Shown in pieces: positions 20,957-34,085 of a stretch of 64,000 bases of DNA. The stretch covers positions 25,155 to 89,154 of the forward strand of contig JBBSCG010000001.1 in NCBI GenBank assembly GCA_038250515.1, given 5' to 3'. The notes under the pieces were generated by a model. The model saw nothing but the letters and a program-made list of their open reading frames with translations, searched no databases and was not told the origin of the DNA. Position 1 is the first letter of the stretch; each line of letters starts with the position of its first letter. The stretch comes from Candidatus Limnocylindria bacterium (GTDB taxonomy: Bacteria; Chloroflexota; Limnocylindria; QHBO01). The translations under genes were made by a program, and so were the position numbers.

Positions 20957-20979
20957 GTTGAGCCCCTGGGGGACTCAAC
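20957..20979. terminator. Imperfect hairpin between convergent otsB and otsA
   Basis: GTTGAGCCCC-TGG-GGGACTCAAC gives a 9/10-bp stem with a 3-nt loop. There is no T-tract, as expected at high GC. It overlaps the otsA stop. Confidence 0.25.
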
Positions 20980-22582
20980 GGCGCCTGCGGGCCGACCCTC
21001 GCTGCTCGACGATATCGGCCAGGTCGTCGAGCTGGCGAGCCAGCCACCACGTGATGTCTTCCGCCTCCACGCCCGCGCGCAGGCGCGCCAAGCGCTCCTC
21101 GCGGTCGGCGAACGACATCTCCAGCGCGGCGCGCATGGCGTCGGCCGTCCCGACCACGTCCGCCGGGGCGACCGGCAGGACTCCATCGGCCATCTGGTCG
21201 TAGGCGCCGGCCGTCTCGGAAAGAATCAGGACGCCGGGGCGGTCATTGACGACGACGCCCTCCTTGGCGACCAGGTTCATCCCGTCGATCAGGGGGTTGA
21301 CCAGGATCACGTCCGCGATCGACAGGCCGGCCATGGCCTGTGCATAGTCGTTCTCGTAGAAGAGCTGCACGGGACGGTAGCCGGCGCGCCCGTATCGGGC
21401 GTTGATGCGGTCGACCGCACCCTGCACCTGCCGTCCGTAGTGGCCGTACTCGCGCAGGTTGGTGCGTGACGGGACGAGGAAGGCCAGGAATGTGACGCGT
21501 CCCCGATAGCGCGGGTAGCGCAACAGGAGTGCCTCGAACGCGGCGAAGCCGCGCAGGATGTTCTTCGAGGGCTCGAGCCGATCCACCCGCACGATGATCT
21601 GCTCGCGCGCCGTCCCCAGCAGCTCCTCGCGACGTCTCCGCGCCGCCCGCGACGCGGCCGCTCGCCGGGTCGACGCCACGTCGATGGAGATCGGATACGA
21701 GCGCGCGTGGGCCACGTGCCCGTCAGGGCGTGTGGCAGTGCCGTTCGAATAGTCGACGCGCACGTCGGGCAAAAACGATTCCACGCTGCGCAGGAAGTTG
21801 TGCGTGTAGCGGTCGGTCTGGAATCCGACCACGTCATTGGCGACCAGGCCACGGCAGATCGCCTCACGCATCGAGGGCGCCAGCACCTGCCACAGCGACG
21901 ACGGCGGCCACGGGATATGGGTGAAGTGGCTGAGCACGGCGCCGGGGCGAGCGCGTCGGATCGGATCGGCAGCGAGGTACAGGTGGTAGTCGTGAAGCAT
22001 GATCCGCGGGCTCGGATCGCTGCGCGGCGCCTGTGCGAGCACCGCCTCGGCGAAGTCGTCGTTGACGGCCACGTAGCCGTTTTCCCAGGCTCGCATGATC
22101 GCGGCATCGATCACCGGTCGCTCGGGCAGATTCCACATCTGGTGCTGCAGGAACCAGAGCAGCGGGTTGGCGATGACGTTGTAGGCGGCCTCGTAGGCGG
22201 GGCGATCGATCGCGGCGAAGCGCAGCCGCACGTCCTCGAGTGGCTGAGCCTTTGCAATCAGCTTCGGGTCTGCGGCGGCCCGTCGGTCGCCCTCGGTCAT
22301 CGCCGCCGCGACCCACGTGACCGGCACGTGCCGACCGACCTGGCTCAGGGCGGTGACCAGCCCGCCGCTGCCGCGCCTGGGTCGCAGCGTCCCGTCGGCG
22401 GCGGTGGCAAAGGTCACTGGGCCGCGGTTGGTGGCGATCAGCAGGCGGCGGTTGCCGAGCAGACGCGTGGCGGCATCGGCCAGGGCTCCCTCGTGGGCAA
22501 CCTTCGGCGACGGCGGCGCGCCGTGCGGGACCGCAGTGTTCACCGCGGTCGGCGCGCGTCGCTGCTCCCCACGGCCGGTCAT
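20975..22582 (-). CDS. otsA: Alpha,alpha-trehalose-phosphate synthase (GT20)
   Basis: LLIATNRGPVTFA...GSGGLVTAL and GFFLHIPWP-like regions align along the full length with OtsA. Confidence 0.85.
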   Translation of the reverse strand: MTGRGEQRRAPTAVNTAVPHGAPPSPKVAHEGALADAATRLLGNRRLLIATNRGPVTFATAADGTLRPRRGSGGLVTALSQVGRHVPVTWVAAAMTEGDRRAAADPKLIAKAQPLEDVRLRFAAIDRPAYEAAYNVIANPLLWFLQHQMWNLPERPVIDAAIMRAWENGYVAVNDDFAEAVLAQAPRSDPSPRIMLHDYHLYLAADPIRRARPGAVLSHFTHIPWPPSSLWQVLAPSMREAICRGLVANDVVGFQTDRYTHNFLRSVESFLPDVRVDYSNGTATRPDGHVAHARSYPISIDVASTRRAAASRAARRRREELLGTAREQIIVRVDRLEPSKNILRGFAAFEALLLRYPRYRGRVTFLAFLVPSRTNLREYGHYGRQVQGAVDRINARYGRAGYRPVQLFYENDYAQAMAGLSIADVILVNPLIDGMNLVAKEGVVVNDRPGVLILSETAGAYDQMADGVLPVAPADVVGTADAMRAALEMSFADREERLARLRAGVEAEDITWWLARQLDDLADIVEQRGSARRRR

Positions 22583-27812: not shown

Positions 27813-28118
27813 CTACTCCTTGAGGTCGTGGTACTCGTCGACCTCGGCCGTCTGACGAGTGCGGATGATGGCGATGATCAGCGCCAGACCGACGGTTGCC
27901 TCGGCCGCCGCCACGGCCATGATCATCAGCGCAAAGATGGCGCCATTGACCGATGCCGTCGGCCGATAGGCGTTGAACGCGACCAGGCTCAGGTTCACGG
28001 CGTTCAGCATCAGCTCGATGCAGATCAGCATCAGGATCGCGTTGCGGCGTGCCATGAAGCCGAAGGCACCGATCGCGAAGAGCACCGTGGAGACGATCAG
28101 ATAGCCGGCAAGGCCCAT
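27813..28118 (-). CDS. nuoK: NADH-quinone oxidoreductase subunit K
   Basis: 101 aa: MGLAGYLIVSTVLFAIGAFGFMARRNAILMLICIELMLNAVNL. Confidence 0.8.
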   Translation of the reverse strand: MGLAGYLIVSTVLFAIGAFGFMARRNAILMLICIELMLNAVNLSLVAFNAYRPTASVNGAIFALMIMAVAAAEATVGLALIIAIIRTRQTAEVDEYHDLKE

Positions 28119-28693
28119 CAGCCGGCTCGCTCGTCCTCTTCCGGCCGTCGGGCCAGGAAGATCGCGCCGATGATGGCGGCCAGCAGCAGCAGGCTGAGTA
28201 TCTCGAAGGGCAGGGCGTAGTCGGTGAAGAGCGCCGTGGCGAGGCCCTGCAGGTTCACGGCAACGGCAGCGGTGGCGGTGATCGTGCCCCAATCGGTCTG
28301 GAAGACGGCCCAACCGATCAATCCCACCACGATCAATGCGGCGAGCGCGGCGAACGGCACCTGGCGGTGGAACGGCGCGCGCAGGCTGGCGTCGCCGGCC
28401 TGGGTGAGCATGATCGCGAAGATGATCAGCACGCTGATGGCGCCGAGGTAGATGAGCACCTGTGCAGCGGCCACGATCGGCGCGCCGAGCAGCGCGTACA
28501 TGCCGGCCAGTGAGCCGAAGCAGACCATCATGGCGATCGCCGCGTGGATCACGTTGCGGAGGGTCACGACGGCAAGCCCACCACCGACCACACCGATGGC
28601 GAGCACAACGAACAGGACGCCGGTGATATCCAGGGTTGAACGCTCCCGTTGGAGTTTTTCGAGCGCACAGCGGCTGCCCGCGACGCAACACAA
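28118..28693 (-). CDS. nuoJ: NADH-quinone oxidoreductase subunit J
   Basis: VLFVVLAIGVVGGGLAVVTLRNVIHAAIAMMVCFGSLAGMYALLGA. The start is uncertain (TTG at 28693 or downstream). Confidence 0.7.
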   Translation of the reverse strand: MCCVAGSRCALEKLQRERSTLDITGVLFVVLAIGVVGGGLAVVTLRNVIHAAIAMMVCFGSLAGMYALLGAPIVAAAQVLIYLGAISVLIIFAIMLTQAGDASLRAPFHRQVPFAALAALIVVGLIGWAVFQTDWGTITATAAVAVNLQGLATALFTDYALPFEILSLLLLAAIIGAIFLARRPEEDERAG

Positions 28694-28767
28694 GCGGCCT
28701 GCCCGATTCTAGCGTACGGAACCCGCCGCGAGCCGCCGCCGCGCTCCCGGCGGAACGTTCGCAATTG

Positions 28768-30150
28768 TCACGCGCGAGGCAGGAGGTAGGTCTCCAAACC
28801 TTCCTCGAGTGGTGTGAGGCGCCGCGGCATCCGATCCAGCAGTGGTCGCGTATCGGTCTCGGCCGGCTGGTTCACGAAGTCGACGCCTCCAGGCGTCAGC
28901 GGCCGGCCGGGAACGAATTGCAGCAGCGATGCCGCGAGCTTTACCAGCGGCGCCGGCGCCGGGAGCAGCGGCCGCCGAAGCTTCGCCACGCGGAGCGCAC
29001 GCCGGATCACCTCGCGCATGGACATGGTCTCCGGACCGCCGATCTCGAAGACCCGGTTGTGCGCCGCATCGGCGACCAGCGAGTCGGCGACCAGCTCGGC
29101 GACGTCGCGCACGAAGACGGGGGCCAGCGGCTGTCCGCCGAAGTTGCTGAGCGGGACGAATGGCAGCGTGCGCGCGAAACCGAGGAACCGATTGAGCGCC
29201 ACGTCGCGCGGCCCGAAGATCCACGTCGGCCGGATGATGGTGTAGTCGATCCCGCTGTGCCGGATAGCCTCCTCGGCGCGCCACTTGGCTCGGAACCAGT
29301 GTCGTTCGGCATCAGGCGCCGCGCCCGCGCCGGACATGTAGACCAGCCGGGTAACTCCGGCCTGTTTCGCAGCCGTGGTGAGCCGCTCCGTGCCCGCCGC
29401 GTCGACGGCCTCGAAGGTCCAGCCTTTCGCCGGATCCTCCATCGGCAGATTGGGAAAGGCGAGCGCGATGGCGAGCGCGTCGACGCCGCGGAGGGCGTCG
29501 ACCAAACCGTCGGCCCGGGAGACATCGGCCTCGCGAATCTCGACGCCGTCGGGCAGATTCTCGCCAGCCGTCTTCGGGTTGTGGCTCAGCACCACGACGC
29601 TGTGGCCGCGGCGGTGCAGCTCGGCAGCAATCTCGCCGCCGACGAAGCCTGATCCGCCGGCGACGGCGACGGTCATCGGTTGCTCAAGGCTTGCGCGCAG
29701 GGGCAGCAGGCGCTCCATTGCCGCACCGCGGTAGCCGAAGGTCTGCTCGAGCCGCGGCCGGACGACGAACCGGTTCAGGAGGTCGCCCAGCGGCCCGAAC
29801 GGCAGCCCGTAGGTGACCTCGTCCTCGACGCGGGTCCCGCCCGCCTCCTCGCTGAACGAATGCACGTGGTGCCAGCGCCGGTACGGCCCGCGCAGCTGGA
29901 CGTCGTCGAAATGCGCGTCACTCACGTAGTCGTTGATCACGCTCGTCCAGCCGATCGCGATCCCGAGGAAGGGTCGGATGCGGCAGTCGATGACTAAACC
30001 CGTGCGCATCTGGCGATCTGCCGAGCGCAGCTCAAAGCCCAGCCCGTCCGGGGTCAGCCGTCCGAGGTTCTCGGGCATGGCGAAGAACGTGAAGACTTCG
30101 CGCAATGGCCGATCCACGTGCTGGCTGGCCCGAATGGTGTGTGTGCTCAT
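28768..30150 (-). CDS. Fusion protein: N-terminal SRPBCC (START/Coq10-like) domain plus C-terminal NAD(P)-binding epimerase/NmrA/NDUFA9-like Rossmann domain
   Basis: The N-terminus HVDRPLREVFTFFAMPENL...GPYRRWHHVHSF fits the SRPBCC fold. The C-terminus MTVAVAGGSGFVGGEIAAELHRRGHSVVVLSHNP...YMSGAGA carries a Rossmann GxxGxxG. It sits between nuoJ and the nuoG-like gene. Confidence 0.6.
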   Translation of the reverse strand: MSTHTIRASQHVDRPLREVFTFFAMPENLGRLTPDGLGFELRSADRQMRTGLVIDCRIRPFLGIAIGWTSVINDYVSDAHFDDVQLRGPYRRWHHVHSFSEEAGGTRVEDEVTYGLPFGPLGDLLNRFVVRPRLEQTFGYRGAAMERLLPLRASLEQPMTVAVAGGSGFVGGEIAAELHRRGHSVVVLSHNPKTAGENLPDGVEIREADVSRADGLVDALRGVDALAIALAFPNLPMEDPAKGWTFEAVDAAGTERLTTAAKQAGVTRLVYMSGAGAAPDAERHWFRAKWRAEEAIRHSGIDYTIIRPTWIFGPRDVALNRFLGFARTLPFVPLSNFGGQPLAPVFVRDVAELVADSLVADAAHNRVFEIGGPETMSMREVIRRALRVAKLRRPLLPAPAPLVKLAASLLQFVPGRPLTPGGVDFVNQPAETDTRPLLDRMPRRLTPLEEGLETYLLPRA

Positions 30151-30324
30151 GATCGTGTTGAACTCTCGACTCGCTATGAGCGCGCAGGTGGATCACCAGC
30201 GCGTATACCGGCTACCTTGATGTAGGAAGTATGGGTCCCTATACCGGCTACTGTCAAGGTGCAAGTAAGCCATGAACCGCGCGCTGCCCGCACGCTCATC
30301 AACTTCGACAAAGATGGGATCCGT

Positions 30325-32712
30325 CTAGCGGGTGGGACGCTCCCGATCGGACATCTCCAAGATGTCGAGCATCGGCAGATCACGCTGGTACTCGCTGAAC
30401 TCGAACTCGGGGCCGCAGCGGAGGGCGTCGTACGGGCAGGCATCGGCGCAGATGCCGCAGAAGATGCAGCGCGAGACGTCGAGCTGGTAGGTCTCCAGCG
30501 TCCGCGGCCGCGGCATCAGGGCGCCCACCGGGCACGTTTCGGCGCATCGGCCGCAGGAGACGCATGGCGTCTCGTTCAGAGAAACGAAGTCTGCGGTGGT
30601 GACCAGCGAGTCGAAGCCCTTGCCGATGAAGTCGTAGCAGCCGGCGCCGACGATGTCCTTGCAGACCTGGGCGCATCGGCCGCAGTCGATGCAGCGTGAG
30701 TAGTCGCGCAGGATGAAGGAATGCGTCTCGTCACGCCCGTAGCCGTGGTTGACACCGACATATGGGTTGTCCTGGATCGAACGCTCATCGATCGCCATGT
30801 TGAGCGTCGTCTCGTACTCGATCGCCGCCTCGCGCAGGTCGCAGTGGCCGATCGCCTCGCAGGTGCACTGCAGGCAGCGGTCGGCCTCCGCCATCGCCTG
30901 GTCGTGGGTGTAGCCGTATTCGTACTCGTTGAAGTTGTCGCGTCGCTGTTCCGCGTCGCCCTTGCCCATCAACGCGCGCGGCTCCTTCACGTCGTCGGTG
31001 AAGGGCACGATGGTCAGGAAGCTCGGCTGCGGCTCCGACACGATGCGGCGCACCTGCGGATCGTCGAGGTCGTGGCCGCGGAGCCAGTAGTCCATCGCGT
31101 ACGATGCCCGTCTGGCCTCCCCGATCGCCTCGACCACCGTGGCCGATCCGGTGCGGACATCGCCCGAGACGAAGACTTTCGGCACGTTGGTGCGGAAGAT
31201 GTCCTCCTCGCTGACGAGCGTGCCACGCCGCGAGACCTCCAGGGCGGAACGAATCTCCTCCGGCTCCGTCTCGATCCAATGCAGGTCGGGCCCCTGGCCG
31301 ATGGCGCCCAGCACGGTGTCGCAGTCGACCACGAACTCGGTGCCGGGCATCGGCTCGGGACGGCGGCGACCCTTTTCGTCGGGCTCGCCGAGCTTCATGC
31401 GCTGGAACTCGACGCCGGTCACTCGGTCGTTCTTGTCGGTGACGATGCGCGTCGGCGCGGCCTGGAAGATGACCCGCGCGCCCTCCTCGATTGCCTCATG
31501 CACCTCGTCCTGGGCGGGCATGTCCTTCAGGTCGCGGCGGTAGACCAGGGTCACTTCCGCAGCGCCCTGCCGGATCGAGGTGCGTGTGCAGTCGATTGCG
31601 GTGAACCCGCCGCCGATGACCACCACGCGGGCATCGTGCAGCTTGGGCACGGTCACGCCGCGGGTCGAGTTGTAGAGGTTCTCGAGAGCGTTGACCATCC
31701 CGTCGGCCTCCTCGCCAGGGATGCCGAGCACGTTCGACTGGTAGCAGCCGATCGAGATGTAGATGGCGTCGTAGTCGGGCAGCAGGTCGCCAATGTGGAA
31801 ATCGCGGCCGAGGCGCATATTCGGCTTCAGCCGCGCGCCGAGCTCCCAAACGTGGTTCAGCTCGCGGTCCATCCAGCCCTTCGGCAGACGGTACTGCGGG
31901 ATGCCGTAGCGCAGCATGCCGCCCTGCTCGGGCTCCGCCTCGAAGACGTCGCACTGATGGCCGCGCAGCTGCAGGTAGTACGCGTTGGCCATCCCGGCAG
32001 GGCCGGCGCCGATGACCGCCACGCGCTTGCCCGTCGGCGGGTCCTTGGGCCACGGGATGGGAGCCGGAGCATCGACCTCCAAAACGCGGTCTGCGCAGTA
32101 GCGATGCGAATCGCGGATGGCGATCGCGGTGTCCACCTCTTCCCGGCGGCAATGCGTCTCGCACGGTGCCGGGCACACGCGGCCGAGGATCGCCGGGAAC
32201 GGCAGCGAGCGCTTCAGGATGCGCGTCGCCTCTTCCCAGTTGCCGAGGGTGTTCTGCTTCAGGTAGCCGGGGATGTCGACCCGCGTCGGGCACTTGAACT
32301 GGCAGGGCGGCAGACAGTACGCGTCGTGGTCGGAGAAGATGAGCTCGAGGACCATCCGGCGGTTCTCGATCAGCCGATCCGAGTGGGTGGTGATGACCAT
32401 CCCCTCGTCGATCTTGGTGCCGCATGAGATGGGCGTATCCTCGCGTCCCTCGACCTCGACGACGCAGATGCGGCAGGCACCGTAGGGCGCCAGCTTCGGC
32501 TCGTAGCACAGGGTCGGCACGTCGATGCCCAGCACGCGGCAGGCCTGCAGGATGGTCTGGCCCTCCTCGGCCTGCATCTGCTCGCCGTCGACCGTGACGC
32601 TGATCTTGCGGGTGCCGGGCACCATCGGCCAGGTCGGCGTGTAGTCCTCGATCTTGCCGTTGCCGTGGCCGTTCCCGTTGCGGCCGTTGCCGTTCGTCGT
32701 GCCGAAGGTCAT
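30325..32712 (-). CDS. Multidomain Fe-S flavoprotein (795 aa): NuoG-N/HoxU-like 2Fe-2S domain, GltD-like NAD(P)H:FAD oxidoreductase, NuoG-like 4Fe-4S segment and NuoI-like 2x[4Fe-4S] C-terminus
   Basis: The 2Fe-2S region is KISVTVDGEQMQAEEGQTILQACRVLGIDVPTLCYEPKLAPYGACRICVVEV. The GltD N-terminal cluster region CLPPCQFKCP...GRVCPAPCETHC is followed by FAD/NAD folds VAVIGAGPAGMANAYY and VVVIGGGFTAIDC. RCIDCGRCAQVCKD is the NuoG-like 4Fe-4S motif. The C-terminus CVSCGRCAETCPVGAL...CIFCGICADACPYDAL...PEFEFSEY matches the NuoI C-terminus. The N-terminus carries an (Asn-Gly)n low-complexity run. Confidence 0.6.
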   Translation of the reverse strand: MTFGTTNGNGRNGNGHGNGKIEDYTPTWPMVPGTRKISVTVDGEQMQAEEGQTILQACRVLGIDVPTLCYEPKLAPYGACRICVVEVEGREDTPISCGTKIDEGMVITTHSDRLIENRRMVLELIFSDHDAYCLPPCQFKCPTRVDIPGYLKQNTLGNWEEATRILKRSLPFPAILGRVCPAPCETHCRREEVDTAIAIRDSHRYCADRVLEVDAPAPIPWPKDPPTGKRVAVIGAGPAGMANAYYLQLRGHQCDVFEAEPEQGGMLRYGIPQYRLPKGWMDRELNHVWELGARLKPNMRLGRDFHIGDLLPDYDAIYISIGCYQSNVLGIPGEEADGMVNALENLYNSTRGVTVPKLHDARVVVIGGGFTAIDCTRTSIRQGAAEVTLVYRRDLKDMPAQDEVHEAIEEGARVIFQAAPTRIVTDKNDRVTGVEFQRMKLGEPDEKGRRRPEPMPGTEFVVDCDTVLGAIGQGPDLHWIETEPEEIRSALEVSRRGTLVSEEDIFRTNVPKVFVSGDVRTGSATVVEAIGEARRASYAMDYWLRGHDLDDPQVRRIVSEPQPSFLTIVPFTDDVKEPRALMGKGDAEQRRDNFNEYEYGYTHDQAMAEADRCLQCTCEAIGHCDLREAAIEYETTLNMAIDERSIQDNPYVGVNHGYGRDETHSFILRDYSRCIDCGRCAQVCKDIVGAGCYDFIGKGFDSLVTTADFVSLNETPCVSCGRCAETCPVGALMPRPRTLETYQLDVSRCIFCGICADACPYDALRCGPEFEFSEYQRDLPMLDILEMSDRERPTR

Positions 32713-32717
32713 GGTCG

Positions 32718-34085
32718 CTATGCTACCGGCTCGACGCCGGACACGGGCGTGAGCAGCGGGGGAAGGTCCGCAGTCTGGCACGAGCCGGCCAGGCAGATGC
32801 CGCGCTCCGCGTGGGCGCGGTACTCGTCGGGGAAGCGCTCGAGCGTCGTCAGCATCGGTCCCGGCGCGCGCGCCTCGAGGTGGCACAGCGCCGTGTCGTG
32901 CATCTTGCGCGACAGCTCGCGCAGCAGCGTGAAGTCGTCCGGACGGGGTGTCGCCGCCAGGATCCGGTCGAGCGTTTCGACCAGGCGCTTGGTGCCGATC
33001 CGGCAGGGCACCGCCTTGCCGCACGCCTCGCGGGCGGAGTGGTCCAAAAAGAAGCGTGCCGTGTCGACCATGCAGATGCTCGCATCGGTCACCAGGATGG
33101 ATCCAAGGCCGATGACGGCGCCTGCGGCGCCGAGCGTCTCGAAGTCGTACGGCGTTTCAAGACTGGCCGCATCGATGGCTCCGCCACCCGACCCGCCGAT
33201 GAACAGCGCCTTGGTGCTGCCCGTCCCGCCGCCGGCCGCGGAGAGCAGCTGAATGAGCGGGATTCCGAGCGGCACCTCGATCAGCCCCGCTTCGGGCACC
33301 TTGCCGAAGATGCTGACCAGCTTGGTGCCTTTGCTGGTCTCCGATCCGACCGATGCGAAGGCCTCCGCGGAGTGCGCCAGGATCCATGCCGCGTGAGCTA
33401 GCGTCTCGGCGTTCTGCACCACGGTCGGCGCGTTCATGAAGCCACGTTCGGTGGGGTAGGGCGGACGGATGATCGGCATGCCGCGATCGCCGGCCAGCGC
33501 CGCCAGCAATGCCGTCTCCTCGCCGGCGACCAGCGCACCGGAGCCTTCCCACAGTGCGACCTGCACGCTGACGTCCGTCCCCAGGATGAGATAGCCGGCC
33601 ATGCGCGCGGCCTCGGCCTCGGCGATTGCGCCACGTAGCCGCTCGATCGCCAGCGCCCAGTCACGTCGCACGGCCATGTACGTCTCGCTGGCGCCGACCG
33701 CGAATGCGGCGATCAGCAGACCCTCCAGCACGAGGTGCGGATTGCCCTCGGCGAGTGCGCGATCGCCCAGCGCGGTGGGGTCGGCACCCATCAGGTTGGC
33801 GACGACCACCTTGCGCTCGGCGTCGGCGGAGCGGGCCGCCCGCCATTTGTTGGCGGTCGGGTAGCCCGAGCCGCCCCGGCCGCGCAGCTGCGCCGAGCCG
33901 ATCTCACCGATGGTGGCCTCGGGTCCGAGCTTGCCGATTGCGCGCTCAAGCCCGTCGTAGCCGCCGTGCTGCCGGTAGCTCTCAAGCGACGTGGGATCGA
34001 TCCGACCGATGTCGGTCAGCAGGCGCGGCTCGCCACCACGCAGGATGCGGATCTGCGGCGAGAGGCCGGCGATCTCGTTGGCCAT
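32718..34085 (-). CDS. NuoF (51 kDa)-like subunit with non-canonical FMN motif and a 3-Cys N3 site
   Basis: GRGGSGYPTANKW and GSGALVAGEETALLAALAGDRGMP match the NuoF NADH-binding folds. The FMN loop reads VVANLMGADP where CNADEGEPG is canonical. The N3 motif reads ACGKAVPCR (middle Cys replaced by Ala) plus the distal ALCHL. Confidence 0.65.
   Translation of the reverse strand: MANEIAGLSPQIRILRGGEPRLLTDIGRIDPTSLESYRQHGGYDGLERAIGKLGPEATIGEIGSAQLRGRGGSGYPTANKWRAARSADAERKVVVANLMGADPTALGDRALAEGNPHLVLEGLLIAAFAVGASETYMAVRRDWALAIERLRGAIAEAEAARMAGYLILGTDVSVQVALWEGSGALVAGEETALLAALAGDRGMPIIRPPYPTERGFMNAPTVVQNAETLAHAAWILAHSAEAFASVGSETSKGTKLVSIFGKVPEAGLIEVPLGIPLIQLLSAAGGGTGSTKALFIGGSGGGAIDAASLETPYDFETLGAAGAVIGLGSILVTDASICMVDTARFFLDHSAREACGKAVPCRIGTKRLVETLDRILAATPRPDDFTLLRELSRKMHDTALCHLEARAPGPMLTTLERFPDEYRAHAERGICLAGSCQTADLPPLLTPVSGVEPVA

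What the first reader, a model, noticed from the sequence alone, without database searches (positions are those of the whole stretch)
28768..30150. SRPBCC (Coq10/START-like) plus NAD(P)-binding NmrA/NDUFA9-like fusion gene embedded inside the nuo operon
A 460-aa gene between nuoJ and the NuoG-like fusion combines a lipid/quinone-binding-type SRPBCC domain with a Rossmann-fold epimerase/NmrA-like domain (GGSGFVGGEIAAEL). In mitochondria, Coq10 (START fold) and NDUFA9 (NmrA-like, NADPH-binding) are quinone- and complex-I-associated accessory proteins. A bacterial fusion of both folds that sits in-operon could be an accessory subunit or assembly factor of this variant complex. The SRPBCC plus YfcH-like architecture does occur elsewhere in Actinobacteria, so the operon context is the notable point.
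Basis: partly seen in the sequence, partly recalled or inferred. Interest (0 to 1): 0.55.

Follow-up and report, generated by a model that had tools for sequence, protein, structure and literature searches.

The report
Light-regulon SRPBCC–NDUFA9-like gene inside nuo cluster
The gene is real and does fuse a lipid-pocket (SRPBCC) domain to a relative of the mitochondrial complex I subunit NDUFA9, but related genomes show it belongs to a vitamin-B12/light-controlled stress gene set that was dropped into a gap in the complex I gene cluster in one Chloroflexota lineage, so its position is weak evidence that it is a complex I subunit.

Summary
Observation confirmed. Window 28768-30150 (-) encodes a 460-aa protein under purifying selection: an N-terminal SRPBCC helix-grip domain plus a C-terminal atypical SDR. 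The closest solved relatives of the SDR domain are all NDUFA9 (39-kDa) complex I subunits, including one from an alphaproteobacterial supercomplex. It lies between the NuoG'-GltD-NuoI fusion gene and nuoJ.

The organism is Chloroflexota (Limnocylindria-like), not Actinobacteria. Of about 95 related loci, only one clade (at least 70% identity, 7 distinct loci plus the window) has the gene in the nuo cluster. In four of those it still sits beside a divergent carH gene (B12 photoreceptor repressor) and DUF378. Elsewhere the family neighbours carH, photolyase, heliorhodopsin and CFA synthase, with CarH-type operators (TGTACA-N5-TGTACA) at its promoter. In Tepidiforma the two domains are separate genes in a carH/crtD divergon.

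More distant Limnocylindria have the same nuo cluster with nothing between the fusion gene and nuoJ, and one closer relative carries only an unrelated lipoprotein gene there. In the slot-bearing clade nuoJ has its own conserved promoter-like element and leader, and the window gene has its own promoter with two 12-bp repeats.

The best reading is a light/photo-oxidative-stress protein that binds NAD(P)(H) and a hydrophobic ligand and was relocated into the nuo cluster. A complex I role is not excluded.

The parts
28768..30150 (-). Two-domain gene (460 aa): SRPBCC domain plus NDUFA9-family atypical SDR domain
   Evidence: ORF and translation. Pfam. 1413 homologues, the best 120 of them at 59-100% identity. 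AF2 pLDDT 91.3, pTM 0.89. dN/dS 0.17-0.25.
29707..30150 (-). SRPBCC / helix-grip domain, residues 1-148. Invariant motif D83-x-Q-xx-G-P-Y-xx-W-x-H-x-H97.
   Evidence: Secondary structure beta-alpha-alpha-beta6-long alpha. Pfam on the family. Profile against PDB: 3oh8 N-terminal domain at 1.4e-11. Foldseek TM 0.65-0.79 to TTHA0849, CV1439 and PYL proteins. Invariant columns.
28786..29676 (-). NDUFA9-family atypical SDR domain, residues 159-455. Has G165-x-x-G168-x-x-G171, S273 and K289, but W285 in place of the catalytic Tyr.
   Evidence: Pfam. phmmer against PDB: 9g83_P at 4e-25 and NDUFA9 chains at 1e-18 to 1e-11. Foldseek TMt 0.72-0.82 to NDUFA9 chains. In the residue alignment, W285 pairs with the Y of YAASK in 9g83_P. 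W285 and K289 are invariant in 120 homologues.
30228..30257 (-). Sigma-70-type promoter of the gene: TTGACA (30252-30257), 18-nt spacer, CATACT (30228-30233)
   Evidence: It is the only promoter-like site in 28300-30700 (10 of 12 matches; 0.3 expected). Both hexamers are conserved in the 83%-identical relative L096.
30240..30251 (-). Direct repeat 1, GTAGCCGGTATA (operator-like). It abuts the -35 hexamer.
   Evidence: The 12-mer occurs twice in the 64 kb window, both times here, against 0.03 expected. It is conserved as GTAGCGGGTAAA in L096.
30204..30215 (-). Direct repeat 2, GTAGCCGGTATA, 12 nt downstream of the -10 hexamer
   Evidence: It is conserved as GTAGCAGGTATA in L096. Similar elements occur upstream of the gene in L007 and L021.
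28634..28711 (-). Conserved -10-like TAGAAT (28706-28711) and ~70-nt leader in front of nuoJ. This marks the start of a separate nuoJ-N unit.
   Evidence: GCTAGAATCG...GAGCGCTCGAA...GGGAGC is conserved in all 7 slot-bearing loci examined and absent from L090 and L091, which have no slot. Structural support is weak and there is no Rfam match.
30325..32721 (-). Upstream neighbour: NuoG-Nterm (2Fe-2S) / GltD-like FAD-NAD(P)H / NuoI (2x4Fe-4S) fusion protein. It ends the first nuo unit. The start coordinate is approximate.
   Evidence: Pfam and NCBIfam. Homologues are 794-811 aa.
28118..28693 (-). Downstream neighbour nuoJ. The true start is probably the conserved CTG near 28633. nuoK is a separate gene at 27813-28118.
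   Evidence: Translations. Gene calls in relatives.

Best explanation
The gene encodes a soluble or peripheral two-domain protein of a family confined to Limnocylindria-type Chloroflexota.

Shown:
1. Architecture. An SRPBCC hydrophobic-ligand pocket is fused to an NDUFA9-family atypical SDR. The SDR keeps the dinucleotide-binding glycines, Ser and Lys, but has an invariant Trp where the catalytic Tyr should be.
2. Usual setting of the family. It is a CarH (B12 photoreceptor repressor) neighbourhood. The carH gene lies divergently upstream, TGTACA-N5-TGTACA operators overlap the promoter, and the neighbours are photolyase, heliorhodopsin, DUF378 and cyclopropane-fatty-acid synthase.
3. Separate genes in Tepidiforma. 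There the SRPBCC and the SDR are separate genes in a carH/crtD divergon, so the two domains work together in that setting.
4. The nuo location. It is derived and confined to one clade. A carH-DUF378-gene cassette, in some loci with PNPOx-like and EamA genes, sits in a break between the nuoA-I and nuoJ-N units. In the window lineage carH and DUF378 have been lost. The gene is left with its own promoter carrying a different repeated operator-like motif, GTAGCnGGTAwA.

Inferred:
- The protein is made in response to light or photo-oxidative stress.
- It holds NADP(H) in the Rossmann domain and a membrane-derived hydrophobic molecule (carotenoid, menaquinone or an oxidised lipid) in the SRPBCC pocket.
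- It acts either as a non-classical hydride-transfer enzyme, like NmrA-type quinone or dye reductases that lack the Tyr, or as a nucleotide-loaded carrier or sensor.
- Its neighbourhood with nuo genes is a by-product of where the island landed, not evidence of a stoichiometric subunit.
For: Domains and fold. W285 in place of Tyr.

Context census:
- nuo genes lie next to the gene only in L005, L007/8 and L009/10, and also in L094, L095 and L096/97.
- About 80 loci at 52-68% identity show none.
- 24 loci have carH, 13 have photolyase, 7 have heliorhodopsin and 7 have CFA synthase (named). These are lower bounds, because many contigs are under 4 kb.

Operator:
- The strict pattern occurs in 14 of 62 upstream regions, against 5 hits in 669 kb of background.
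- Allowing up to 2 mismatches, it occurs in 24 of 61 regions, against 0.018 per 250 bp of background.
- It overlaps the -10 of the DUF378-gene promoter inside the nuo slot in L009 and L094.

Tree: the nuo-linked copies form one clade nested in the family.

Slot contents:
- Empty in L090 and L091.
- A reverse-strand 128-aa lipoprotein-like ORF only in L092.
- Metallophos plus the gene in L007/8.
- PNPOx-like, EamA, carH, DUF378 and the gene in L094 and L095.

Tepidiforma locus L093: crtD-like desaturase plus SRPBCC (34% identity, hhalign 99.4%), divergent from carH plus SDR (49% identity).

Recurrent fusions: the same SRPBCC type is also fused to other atypical SDRs (3oh8; YbjT/DUF2867 types).

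Own promoter and repeats, conserved in L096. Separate nuoJ promoter-like element and leader.
Against: - No carH, photolyase or heliorhodopsin gene lies in the 64 kb window, and no CarH-type operator is at the window promoter. Light control of this particular copy is therefore not shown.
- In L005 the gene follows the fusion gene by 43 bp with no promoter-like sequence. There it is probably co-transcribed with nuoA-I.
- The gene has stayed immediately upstream of nuoJ in 7 distinct related loci while the rest of the island decayed.
- The closest solved relatives are genuine complex I subunits.
- The ligand and any catalysis are inferred only.
- Many metagenome contigs are short, so some 'non-nuo' loci simply lack flanking sequence.
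Confidence: 0.6

Rival explanations
1. First reader's view. The protein is a constitutive accessory subunit or assembly factor of this variant complex I. It docks at the junction of the peripheral and membrane arms as NDUFA9 does, and the SRPBCC domain handles quinone or lipid.
For: - The best PDB matches by sequence and structure are NDUFA9 chains, including a bacterial one.
- The gene is kept directly upstream of nuoJ in 7 distinct related loci.
- In L005 it is apparently co-transcribed with nuoA-I.
- Purifying selection is like that on the nuo genes.
Against: - Most of the family is unlinked to nuo.
- The identical nuo cluster exists with no gene in the slot, and L092 carries another gene there.
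- The gene came with carH and DUF378 and is CarH-operated in L009 and L094.
- The window copy has its own promoter and operator-like repeats, and nuoJ has its own promoter-like element.
- There is no specific Coq10 similarity.
Confidence: 0.13
2. Hybrid view. The protein is a light-induced, sub-stoichiometric modulator that docks on complex I at the NDUFA9 site. Under illumination it would protect, deactivate or re-tune quinone reduction, for example by shielding photolabile menaquinone or limiting ROS. On this view the island's position next to nuoJ is favoured rather than accidental.
For: - NDUFA9-family fold.
- CarH control in relatives.
- The gene is retained at the nuo slot while the other cargo is lost.
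- General knowledge, not tested here: mitochondrial NDUFA9 holds non-catalytic NADPH and has been proposed as a redox sensor, as quoted in PMC10068793.
Against: - No direct evidence of interaction exists.
- Most carH-linked copies are far from nuo.
- Other neighbours (CFA synthase, crtD, photolyase) point to membrane-lipid, carotenoid and DNA protection rather than respiration.
Confidence: 0.12
3. The protein is an enzyme of light-induced carotenoid or lipid tailoring, for example an NAD(P)H-dependent reduction of a carotenoid or lipid carbonyl delivered by the SRPBCC domain. It has nothing to do with respiration.
For: - In Tepidiforma the separate SRPBCC and SDR genes flank carH together with a CrtD-family desaturase.
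- CFA synthase and FAD-dependent oxidoreductases recur nearby.
- The same SRPBCC type is repeatedly fused to different SDRs.
Against: - The catalytic Tyr is invariantly Trp.
- No carotenoid genes were detected next to the Limnocylindria copies among the recurrent neighbour clusters.
- This is a specialised case of the best explanation rather than a true alternative.
Confidence: 0.2

Closest known systems
NDUFA9 / 39-kDa (NUEM) subunit of complex I and its alphaproteobacterial homologue (PDB 9g83 chain P)
   Same: - The atypical extended-SDR fold including the C-terminal extension. Foldseek aligns 316 columns against the 328-residue 9g83_P at TMt 0.79, and mitochondrial chains give TMt 0.72-0.82.
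- phmmer E-values of 4e-25 and 1e-18 to 1e-11.
- The GxxGxxG motif, Ser and Lys are kept.
   Different: - Only 20-27% identity.
- It carries an extra N-terminal SRPBCC domain.
- Trp replaces the Tyr of YxxxK, which 9g83_P retains.
- No evidence of association with complex I.
- The family context is a CarH light regulon rather than respiration.
Stand-alone bacterial 'complex I NDUFA9 subunit family protein' (e.g. Tepidiforma WP_322819283.1; NCBI name)
   Same: 49% identity over residues 159-456. It is also adjacent to carH.
   Different: It is a single-domain protein of 301 aa. Its SRPBCC partner is a separate gene across the divergon.
SRPBCC + YfcH/SulA-type epimerase fusion (PDB 3oh8, Corynebacterium glutamicum)
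   Same: The same domain order and a related SRPBCC domain (profile E 1.4e-11). Foldseek aligns both domains (431 columns).
   Different: - The SDR domain is of another family. TIGR01777 scores 32 bits against a cutoff of 207, and there is no DUF1731.
- The domain arrangement differs (rmsd 10.4 A, TM 0.48).
CarH/LitR B12-dependent light regulons of non-phototrophic bacteria (carotenoid genes, photolyase, CFA synthase, SDRs)
   Same: In relatives there is a divergent carH (NCBIfam CarH 1e-47 to 1e-52), tandem TGTACA-type operators over the promoter, and photolyase and CFA synthase neighbours.
   Different: The window copy has lost carH and the operator. No published CarH/LitR regulon found in the searches lists an SRPBCC-NDUFA9-like protein.
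Coq10 / START quinone-binding proteins
   Same: The helix-grip SRPBCC superfamily. There are weak PF03364 matches in the family.
   Different: No Coq10 chain appears among the PDB sequence hits at E<=1 or in the top 50 structure hits. The nearest are TTHA0849, CV1439, PR-10 and PYL proteins.

Membership tests
NDUFA9-like atypical SDR family | Rossmann fold with an N-terminal GxxGxxG dinucleotide motif | tested here: met
   G165-S-G-F-V-G-G171. G165, G168 and G171 are invariant in 120 homologues. NAD_binding_10 at 4e-25.
NDUFA9-like atypical SDR family | Closer in sequence and structure to NDUFA9 chains than to other SDR families | tested here: met
   The top 27 PDB sequence hits are all complex I NDUFA9-type (39-kDa) chains (4e-25 to 7e-12). 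The best other hit is 3e-11. In Foldseek, 48 of the top 50 hits are such chains; the exceptions are 3oh8 and 3wj7.
NDUFA9-like atypical SDR family | Physically a subunit of complex I | not testable with these tools
   This needs purification or cryo-EM. No multimer modelling was available.
NDUFA9-like atypical SDR family | Gene-neighbourhood association with nuo genes across the family | tested here: not met
   Only one clade, at 70% identity or more, is nuo-linked. About 80 other loci and the Tepidiforma homologue are not.
Classical catalytic SDR | Ser-Tyr-Lys catalytic triad (YxxxK) | tested here: not met
   The motif is W285-F-R-A-K289. W285 is invariant and aligns with the Y of YAASK in 9g83_P.
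SRPBCC / START / Bet v 1 superfamily | Helix-grip fold (beta-alpha-alpha-beta6-alpha) enclosing a hydrophobic pocket | tested here: met
   Secondary-structure order in the AF2 models. TM 0.65-0.79 to SRPBCC structures. Pfam on 31 of 32 members. The pocket itself was not inspected.
Coq10 subfamily | Specific sequence or structure similarity to Coq10 proteins | tested here: not met
   No Coq10 chain at E<=1 and none in the top 50 Foldseek hits.
SRPBCC + YfcH (TIGR01777/DUF1731) fusion family | The C-terminal domain reaches the TIGR01777 threshold and carries DUF1731 | tested here: not met
   TIGR01777 scores 31.9 bits against a cutoff of 207, covering only 43 residues. There is no DUF1731 hit.
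CarH/LitR light regulon member | Adjacent carH gene and tandem TGTACA-type operator over the promoter | tested here: inconclusive
   Met for the family: 24 loci have carH, and the operator occurs in 24 of 61 upstream regions, including nuo-slot copies L009, L094 and L095. Not met for the window copy: no carH in 64 kb and no such operator.

The most novel reading that the evidence does not exclude
A bacterial NDUFA9-family protein, here fused to an SRPBCC ligand pocket, is a light-induced, B12/CarH-controlled add-on. It would dock at the NDUFA9 site of complex I to protect or throttle menaquinone reduction under photo-oxidative stress. The Limnocylindria clade with the gene next to nuoJ, co-transcribed with nuoA-I in L005, would be a snapshot of a conditional partner being recruited into the nuo operon. 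That would be a prokaryotic parallel to the way mitochondria acquired NDUFA9.
Probability: 0.1. Interest if true: 0.8.

Novelty: new variant of a known kind. Interest (0 to 1): 0.35.

Why it matters
For complex I biology, the result is a caution. A gene of the NDUFA9 family sitting inside a nuo cluster looks like a bacterial supernumerary subunit, but comparative context shows an island insertion into a split cluster.

The positive result is modest but new as far as my searches show. An SRPBCC module and an NDUFA9-like SDR module, fused in Limnocylindria and encoded separately in Tepidiforma, belong to B12/CarH light-response neighbourhoods in Chloroflexota. This gives a testable physiological setting, light or photo-oxidative stress, for a large and uncharacterised set of bacterial 'NDUFA9 family / NAD(P)H-binding' proteins. 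If any of them does bind complex I, it would bear on the origin of NDUFA9.

Tried and rejected
- The single-protein scan of genome contigs gave only 4 loci. The alignment-based metagenome scan gave the useful sample.
- I had first labelled the 27813-28691 ORF a NuoJ-K fusion. This was rejected: nuoJ is in another frame and nuoK is separate.
- The paper behind PDB 9g83 could not be found in the library, so only the entry title is cited.
- The afdb50 fold library was unavailable.
- The conserved leader before nuoJ has no Rfam match and only weak covariation.
- The exact 12-mer GTAGCCGGTATA is absent from the 93 loci held at the time. Only degenerate versions occur, in L096, L007 and L021.
- Literature searches for an SRPBCC or NDUFA9-like member of LitR/CarH regulons, or of heliorhodopsin neighbourhoods, found nothing specific.
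- I could not test whether genomes of the nuo-linked clade carry a second copy of the gene.
Full report
**1. What is in the sequence**

The ORF at 28768-30150 on the minus strand is as described: 460 aa, ATG start, and it contains GGSGFVGGEIAAEL. Residues ~160-445 match NAD_binding_10 (4e-25), Epimerase (4e-16) and NmrA (2e-12).

The N-terminal 157 residues on their own reach only sub-threshold SRPBCC scores (Polyketide_cyc2 1.4e-3). The assignment is nevertheless sound:
- 31 of 32 family members match Polyketide_cyc2 and 29 of 32 match Polyketide_cyc.
- A family profile finds the SRPBCC domain of 3oh8 at 1.4e-11.
- AF2 models of the whole protein (pLDDT 91.3, pTM 0.89) and of the N-terminal domain alone (pLDDT 90.2) show the beta-alpha-alpha-beta6-long-alpha helix-grip order.
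- Foldseek pairs the domain with TTHA0849, CV1439, PR-10 and PYL proteins at TM 0.65-0.79.

No Coq10 chain appears in either search. 'Coq10-like' therefore holds only at superfamily level.

**2. The Rossmann domain is of the NDUFA9 family**

- phmmer against all PDB sequences gives 9g83 chain P at 4e-25. Plant, algal, fungal and mammalian NDUFA9 (39-kDa) chains follow at 6e-20 to 7e-12. The best hit outside complex I is 3e-11.
- Foldseek with the model again ranks 9g83_P first. The entry is titled 'Respiratory supercomplex CI1-CIII2-CIV2-(cbb3)1 from alphaproteobacterium', released 2026-02-04; the match has 27% identity and TMt 0.79. About 45 mitochondrial NDUFA9 chains follow at TMt 0.72-0.82.
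- NCBI already names a stand-alone relative with 49% identity, from Tepidiforma, 'complex I NDUFA9 subunit family protein'.
- In the residue alignment, W285 of the window protein pairs with the Tyr of YAASK in 9g83_P. K289 and S273 are kept.
- W285 and K289 are invariant in 120 homologues. The classical SDR triad is therefore incomplete across the family.
TIGR01777 scores 32 bits against a cutoff of 207.

**3. The gene cluster**

On the minus strand the order is nuoA, B, C, D, H, E, F, then a fusion of the NuoG N-terminus, a GltD-like FAD/NAD(P)H domain and NuoI, then the gene, then nuoJ, K, L, M, N, followed by otsA. nuoJ and nuoK are separate genes in different frames. Names attached to homologues place the organism in Chloroflexota, near Candidatus Limnocylindria, not Actinobacteria.

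The neighbouring nuo genes that were checked abut or overlap (coordinates). The gene, by contrast, has 174 bp upstream and 75-135 bp downstream.

**4. Comparative context**

I collected 97 related loci and classified them by tblastn with the window's nuo proteins and with neighbours found in relatives.
- nuo genes flank the gene only in relatives at 70% identity or more: L005 (74%), L007/8 (77%), L009/10 (71%), L094 and L095 (74%), and L096/97 (83%).
- About 80 loci at 52-68% identity show no nuo gene.
- The recurrent neighbours in those loci are a divergent MerR/B12-binding gene in 24 loci, which NCBIfam identifies as CarH at 1e-47 to 1e-52. Others are photolyase (13 loci), heliorhodopsin (7), DUF378, a fasciclin-like gene, cyclopropane-fatty-acid synthase (7) and a GlnA-like gene.
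- Many contigs are short, so these counts are lower bounds.
- A neighbour-joining tree puts all nuo-linked copies in one clade nested within the family.

**5. CarH operators**

- Upstream regions of the family carry tandem TGTACA-N5-TGTACA elements flanking or overlapping a TTGACA promoter.
- A strict pattern occurs in 14 of 62 upstream regions, against 5 hits in 669 kb of other locus sequence.
- Allowing two mismatches, it occurs in 24 of 61 regions, against 0.018 per 250 bp of background.
- Inside the nuo slot of L009 and L094, the promoter of the DUF378-gene pair has TGTACAAACCCT(G/T)TACG across its -10 region.

**6. The slot between the fusion gene and nuoJ is a variable insertion site**

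| Locus | Content of the slot |
|---|---|
| L090, L091 (fusion protein ~60% identical) | Nothing; fusion gene and nuoJ overlap or are 24 bp apart |
| L092 | Only a reverse-strand 128-aa lipoprotein-like ORF, no trace of the gene |
| L094, L095 | PNPOx-like, EamA, carH (reverse), DUF378, the gene |
| L009/10 (contigs start just upstream of carH) | carH (reverse), DUF378, the gene |
| L007/8 | A metallophosphoesterase, a 38-aa ORF, the gene |
| L005 and the window | The gene alone |

All seven slot-bearing loci examined (six with the gene, plus L092) share a conserved GCTAGAATCG...GAGCGCTCGAA...GGGAGC stretch about 85 nt before the NuoJ coding sequence. It is absent in L090 and L091. I read this as a separate promoter and leader for nuoJ-N.

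The simplest history is as follows. The cluster split into two units in this clade. A carH-centred island landed in the gap. The island then decayed, leaving the gene.

**7. The window copy**

- It has the only sigma-70-like promoter in 2.4 kb, TTGACA-18-CATACT at 30257-30228 (10 of 12 matches; 0.3 expected).
- The exact 12-mer GTAGCCGGTATA occurs twice in the 64 kb window, both times here. One copy abuts the -35 hexamer and the other lies 12 nt after the -10 hexamer (0.03 expected).
- The promoter and both repeats are conserved as GTAGCnGGTAwA in the 83%-identical relative L096. Similar elements precede the gene in L007 and L021.
- The window holds no carH, photolyase or heliorhodopsin gene and no CarH-type operator.
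- This copy therefore appears to be independently transcribed and probably repressor-controlled, by an unidentified factor.
- In L005 the gene follows the fusion gene by 43 bp without a promoter. There it is probably read through from nuoA-I.

**8. The two domains work together**

- In Tepidiforma (L093), a 152-aa stand-alone SRPBCC protein lies with a CrtD-family desaturase on one side of a divergon. It is 34% identical to the window's N-terminal domain, shares the DVQ..GP(F/Y)RRW.H.H.F motif, and scores hhalign probability 99.4%.
- carH followed by the stand-alone NDUFA9-like SDR lies on the other side of the same divergon.
- In a library clustered at 50% identity, the full-length fusion collapses to essentially one representative. 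The stand-alone ~300-aa SDRs are numerous: 228 representatives below 1e-30.
- The same SRPBCC type is also fused to YfcH-type (3oh8) and YbjT/DUF2867-type SDRs.

**9. Interpretation**

Shown:
- The architecture.
- NDUFA9-family membership of the SDR domain.
- Loss of the catalytic Tyr.
- Family-wide CarH linkage.
- The derived, single-clade nature of the nuo location.
- Independent promoters.
- Purifying selection (dN/dS 0.17-0.25, like the neighbours).

Inferred:
- The protein is a light or photo-oxidative-stress response protein.
- It holds NADP(H) and a hydrophobic membrane-derived ligand.
- It acts as a non-classical reductase or as a nucleotide-loaded carrier or sensor.

The complex I subunit reading is not excluded. 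The solved homologues are true subunits, the gene is retained next to nuoJ, and L005 suggests co-transcription. A hybrid reading, a light-induced modulator of complex I, gets about 0.12.

**10. Novelty and score**

The domains are known kinds, and NCBI already labels relatives as NDUFA9 family. The newer points are:
- The SRPBCC-NDUFA9-like fusion is confined to Limnocylindria.
- The family belongs to CarH neighbourhoods.
- An island inserted into a split nuo cluster.

I found no paper describing these points. I score interest at 0.35. The striking reading, a bacterial supernumerary subunit encoded in-operon, is mostly explained away. What remains is a testable lead on bacterial NDUFA9-like proteins.

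Noticed in passing
window 30325-32721 (-); also L005, L007, L090-L092, L094: NuoG is replaced by a ~798-aa fusion protein. It has the NuoG N-terminal 2Fe-2S/4Fe-4S part, a GltD-like FAD/NAD(P)H domain (PRK12814, 1e-163) and a NuoI 2x[4Fe-4S] domain. nuoH is moved to a position between nuoD and nuoE. The arrangement is conserved across Limnocylindria, where the 60%-identity homologues are 850-890 aa. It implies a second nucleotide/flavin site in this complex I variant.
   Followed up: partly
window 28634-28711 (-); L005 11446-11530, L007 10442-10525, L009 3265-3350, L092 10954-11035, L094 7411-7495, L095 4545-4630: A conserved -10-like GCTAGAATCG is followed by a ~70-nt leader before nuoJ. The leader has a variable hairpin, then the palindrome GAGCGCTC, then GGGAGC. 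nuoJ appears to start at a conserved CTG codon. There is no Rfam match and covariation is weak.
   Followed up: partly
L019, L020, L028, L030, L032 (upstream of the gene); L007, L021, L096, window 30204-30251: Two further operator-like motif types, apart from the CarH type, occur at promoters of the family. One is TTGCTATC-N5-6-GTATCACGATATACT. The other is GTAGCnGGTAwA. This suggests the gene has been rewired to different regulators in different lineages.
   Followed up: no
L001, L006, L015, L023, L025 and others: A heliorhodopsin gene and a GlnA-like gene recur next to each other downstream of the SRPBCC-SDR gene. From my own knowledge, not checked in the literature here, a heliorhodopsin-glutamine synthetase interaction has been reported.
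   Followed up: no
L007 10135-10440: The 400-bp spacer between the gene and nuoJ holds several copies of a ~18-nt repeat, GAGCATCTGGCGCTCGGA / GAGCATCTGACAA. It may be a small repeat element or a remnant of the island.
   Followed up: no
L093 9803-13684: In Tepidiforma, a NuoF-like gene, a ferredoxin-like (Fer2_4/Fer4) gene and a molybdopterin-oxidoreductase gene lie about 0.9 kb downstream of the carH-SDR pair. The set resembles a soluble NAD-dependent formate dehydrogenase rather than complex I. NuoF-like neighbours can therefore mislead context-based calls.
   Followed up: no
window 20975-22582 (-) and relatives: A GT20 trehalose-6-phosphate synthase gene (otsA) directly follows nuoN in the window, the close relatives and L090, usually with a trehalose phosphatase gene next to it. 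It is absent in L091, where an MFS transporter gene follows nuoN.
   Followed up: no
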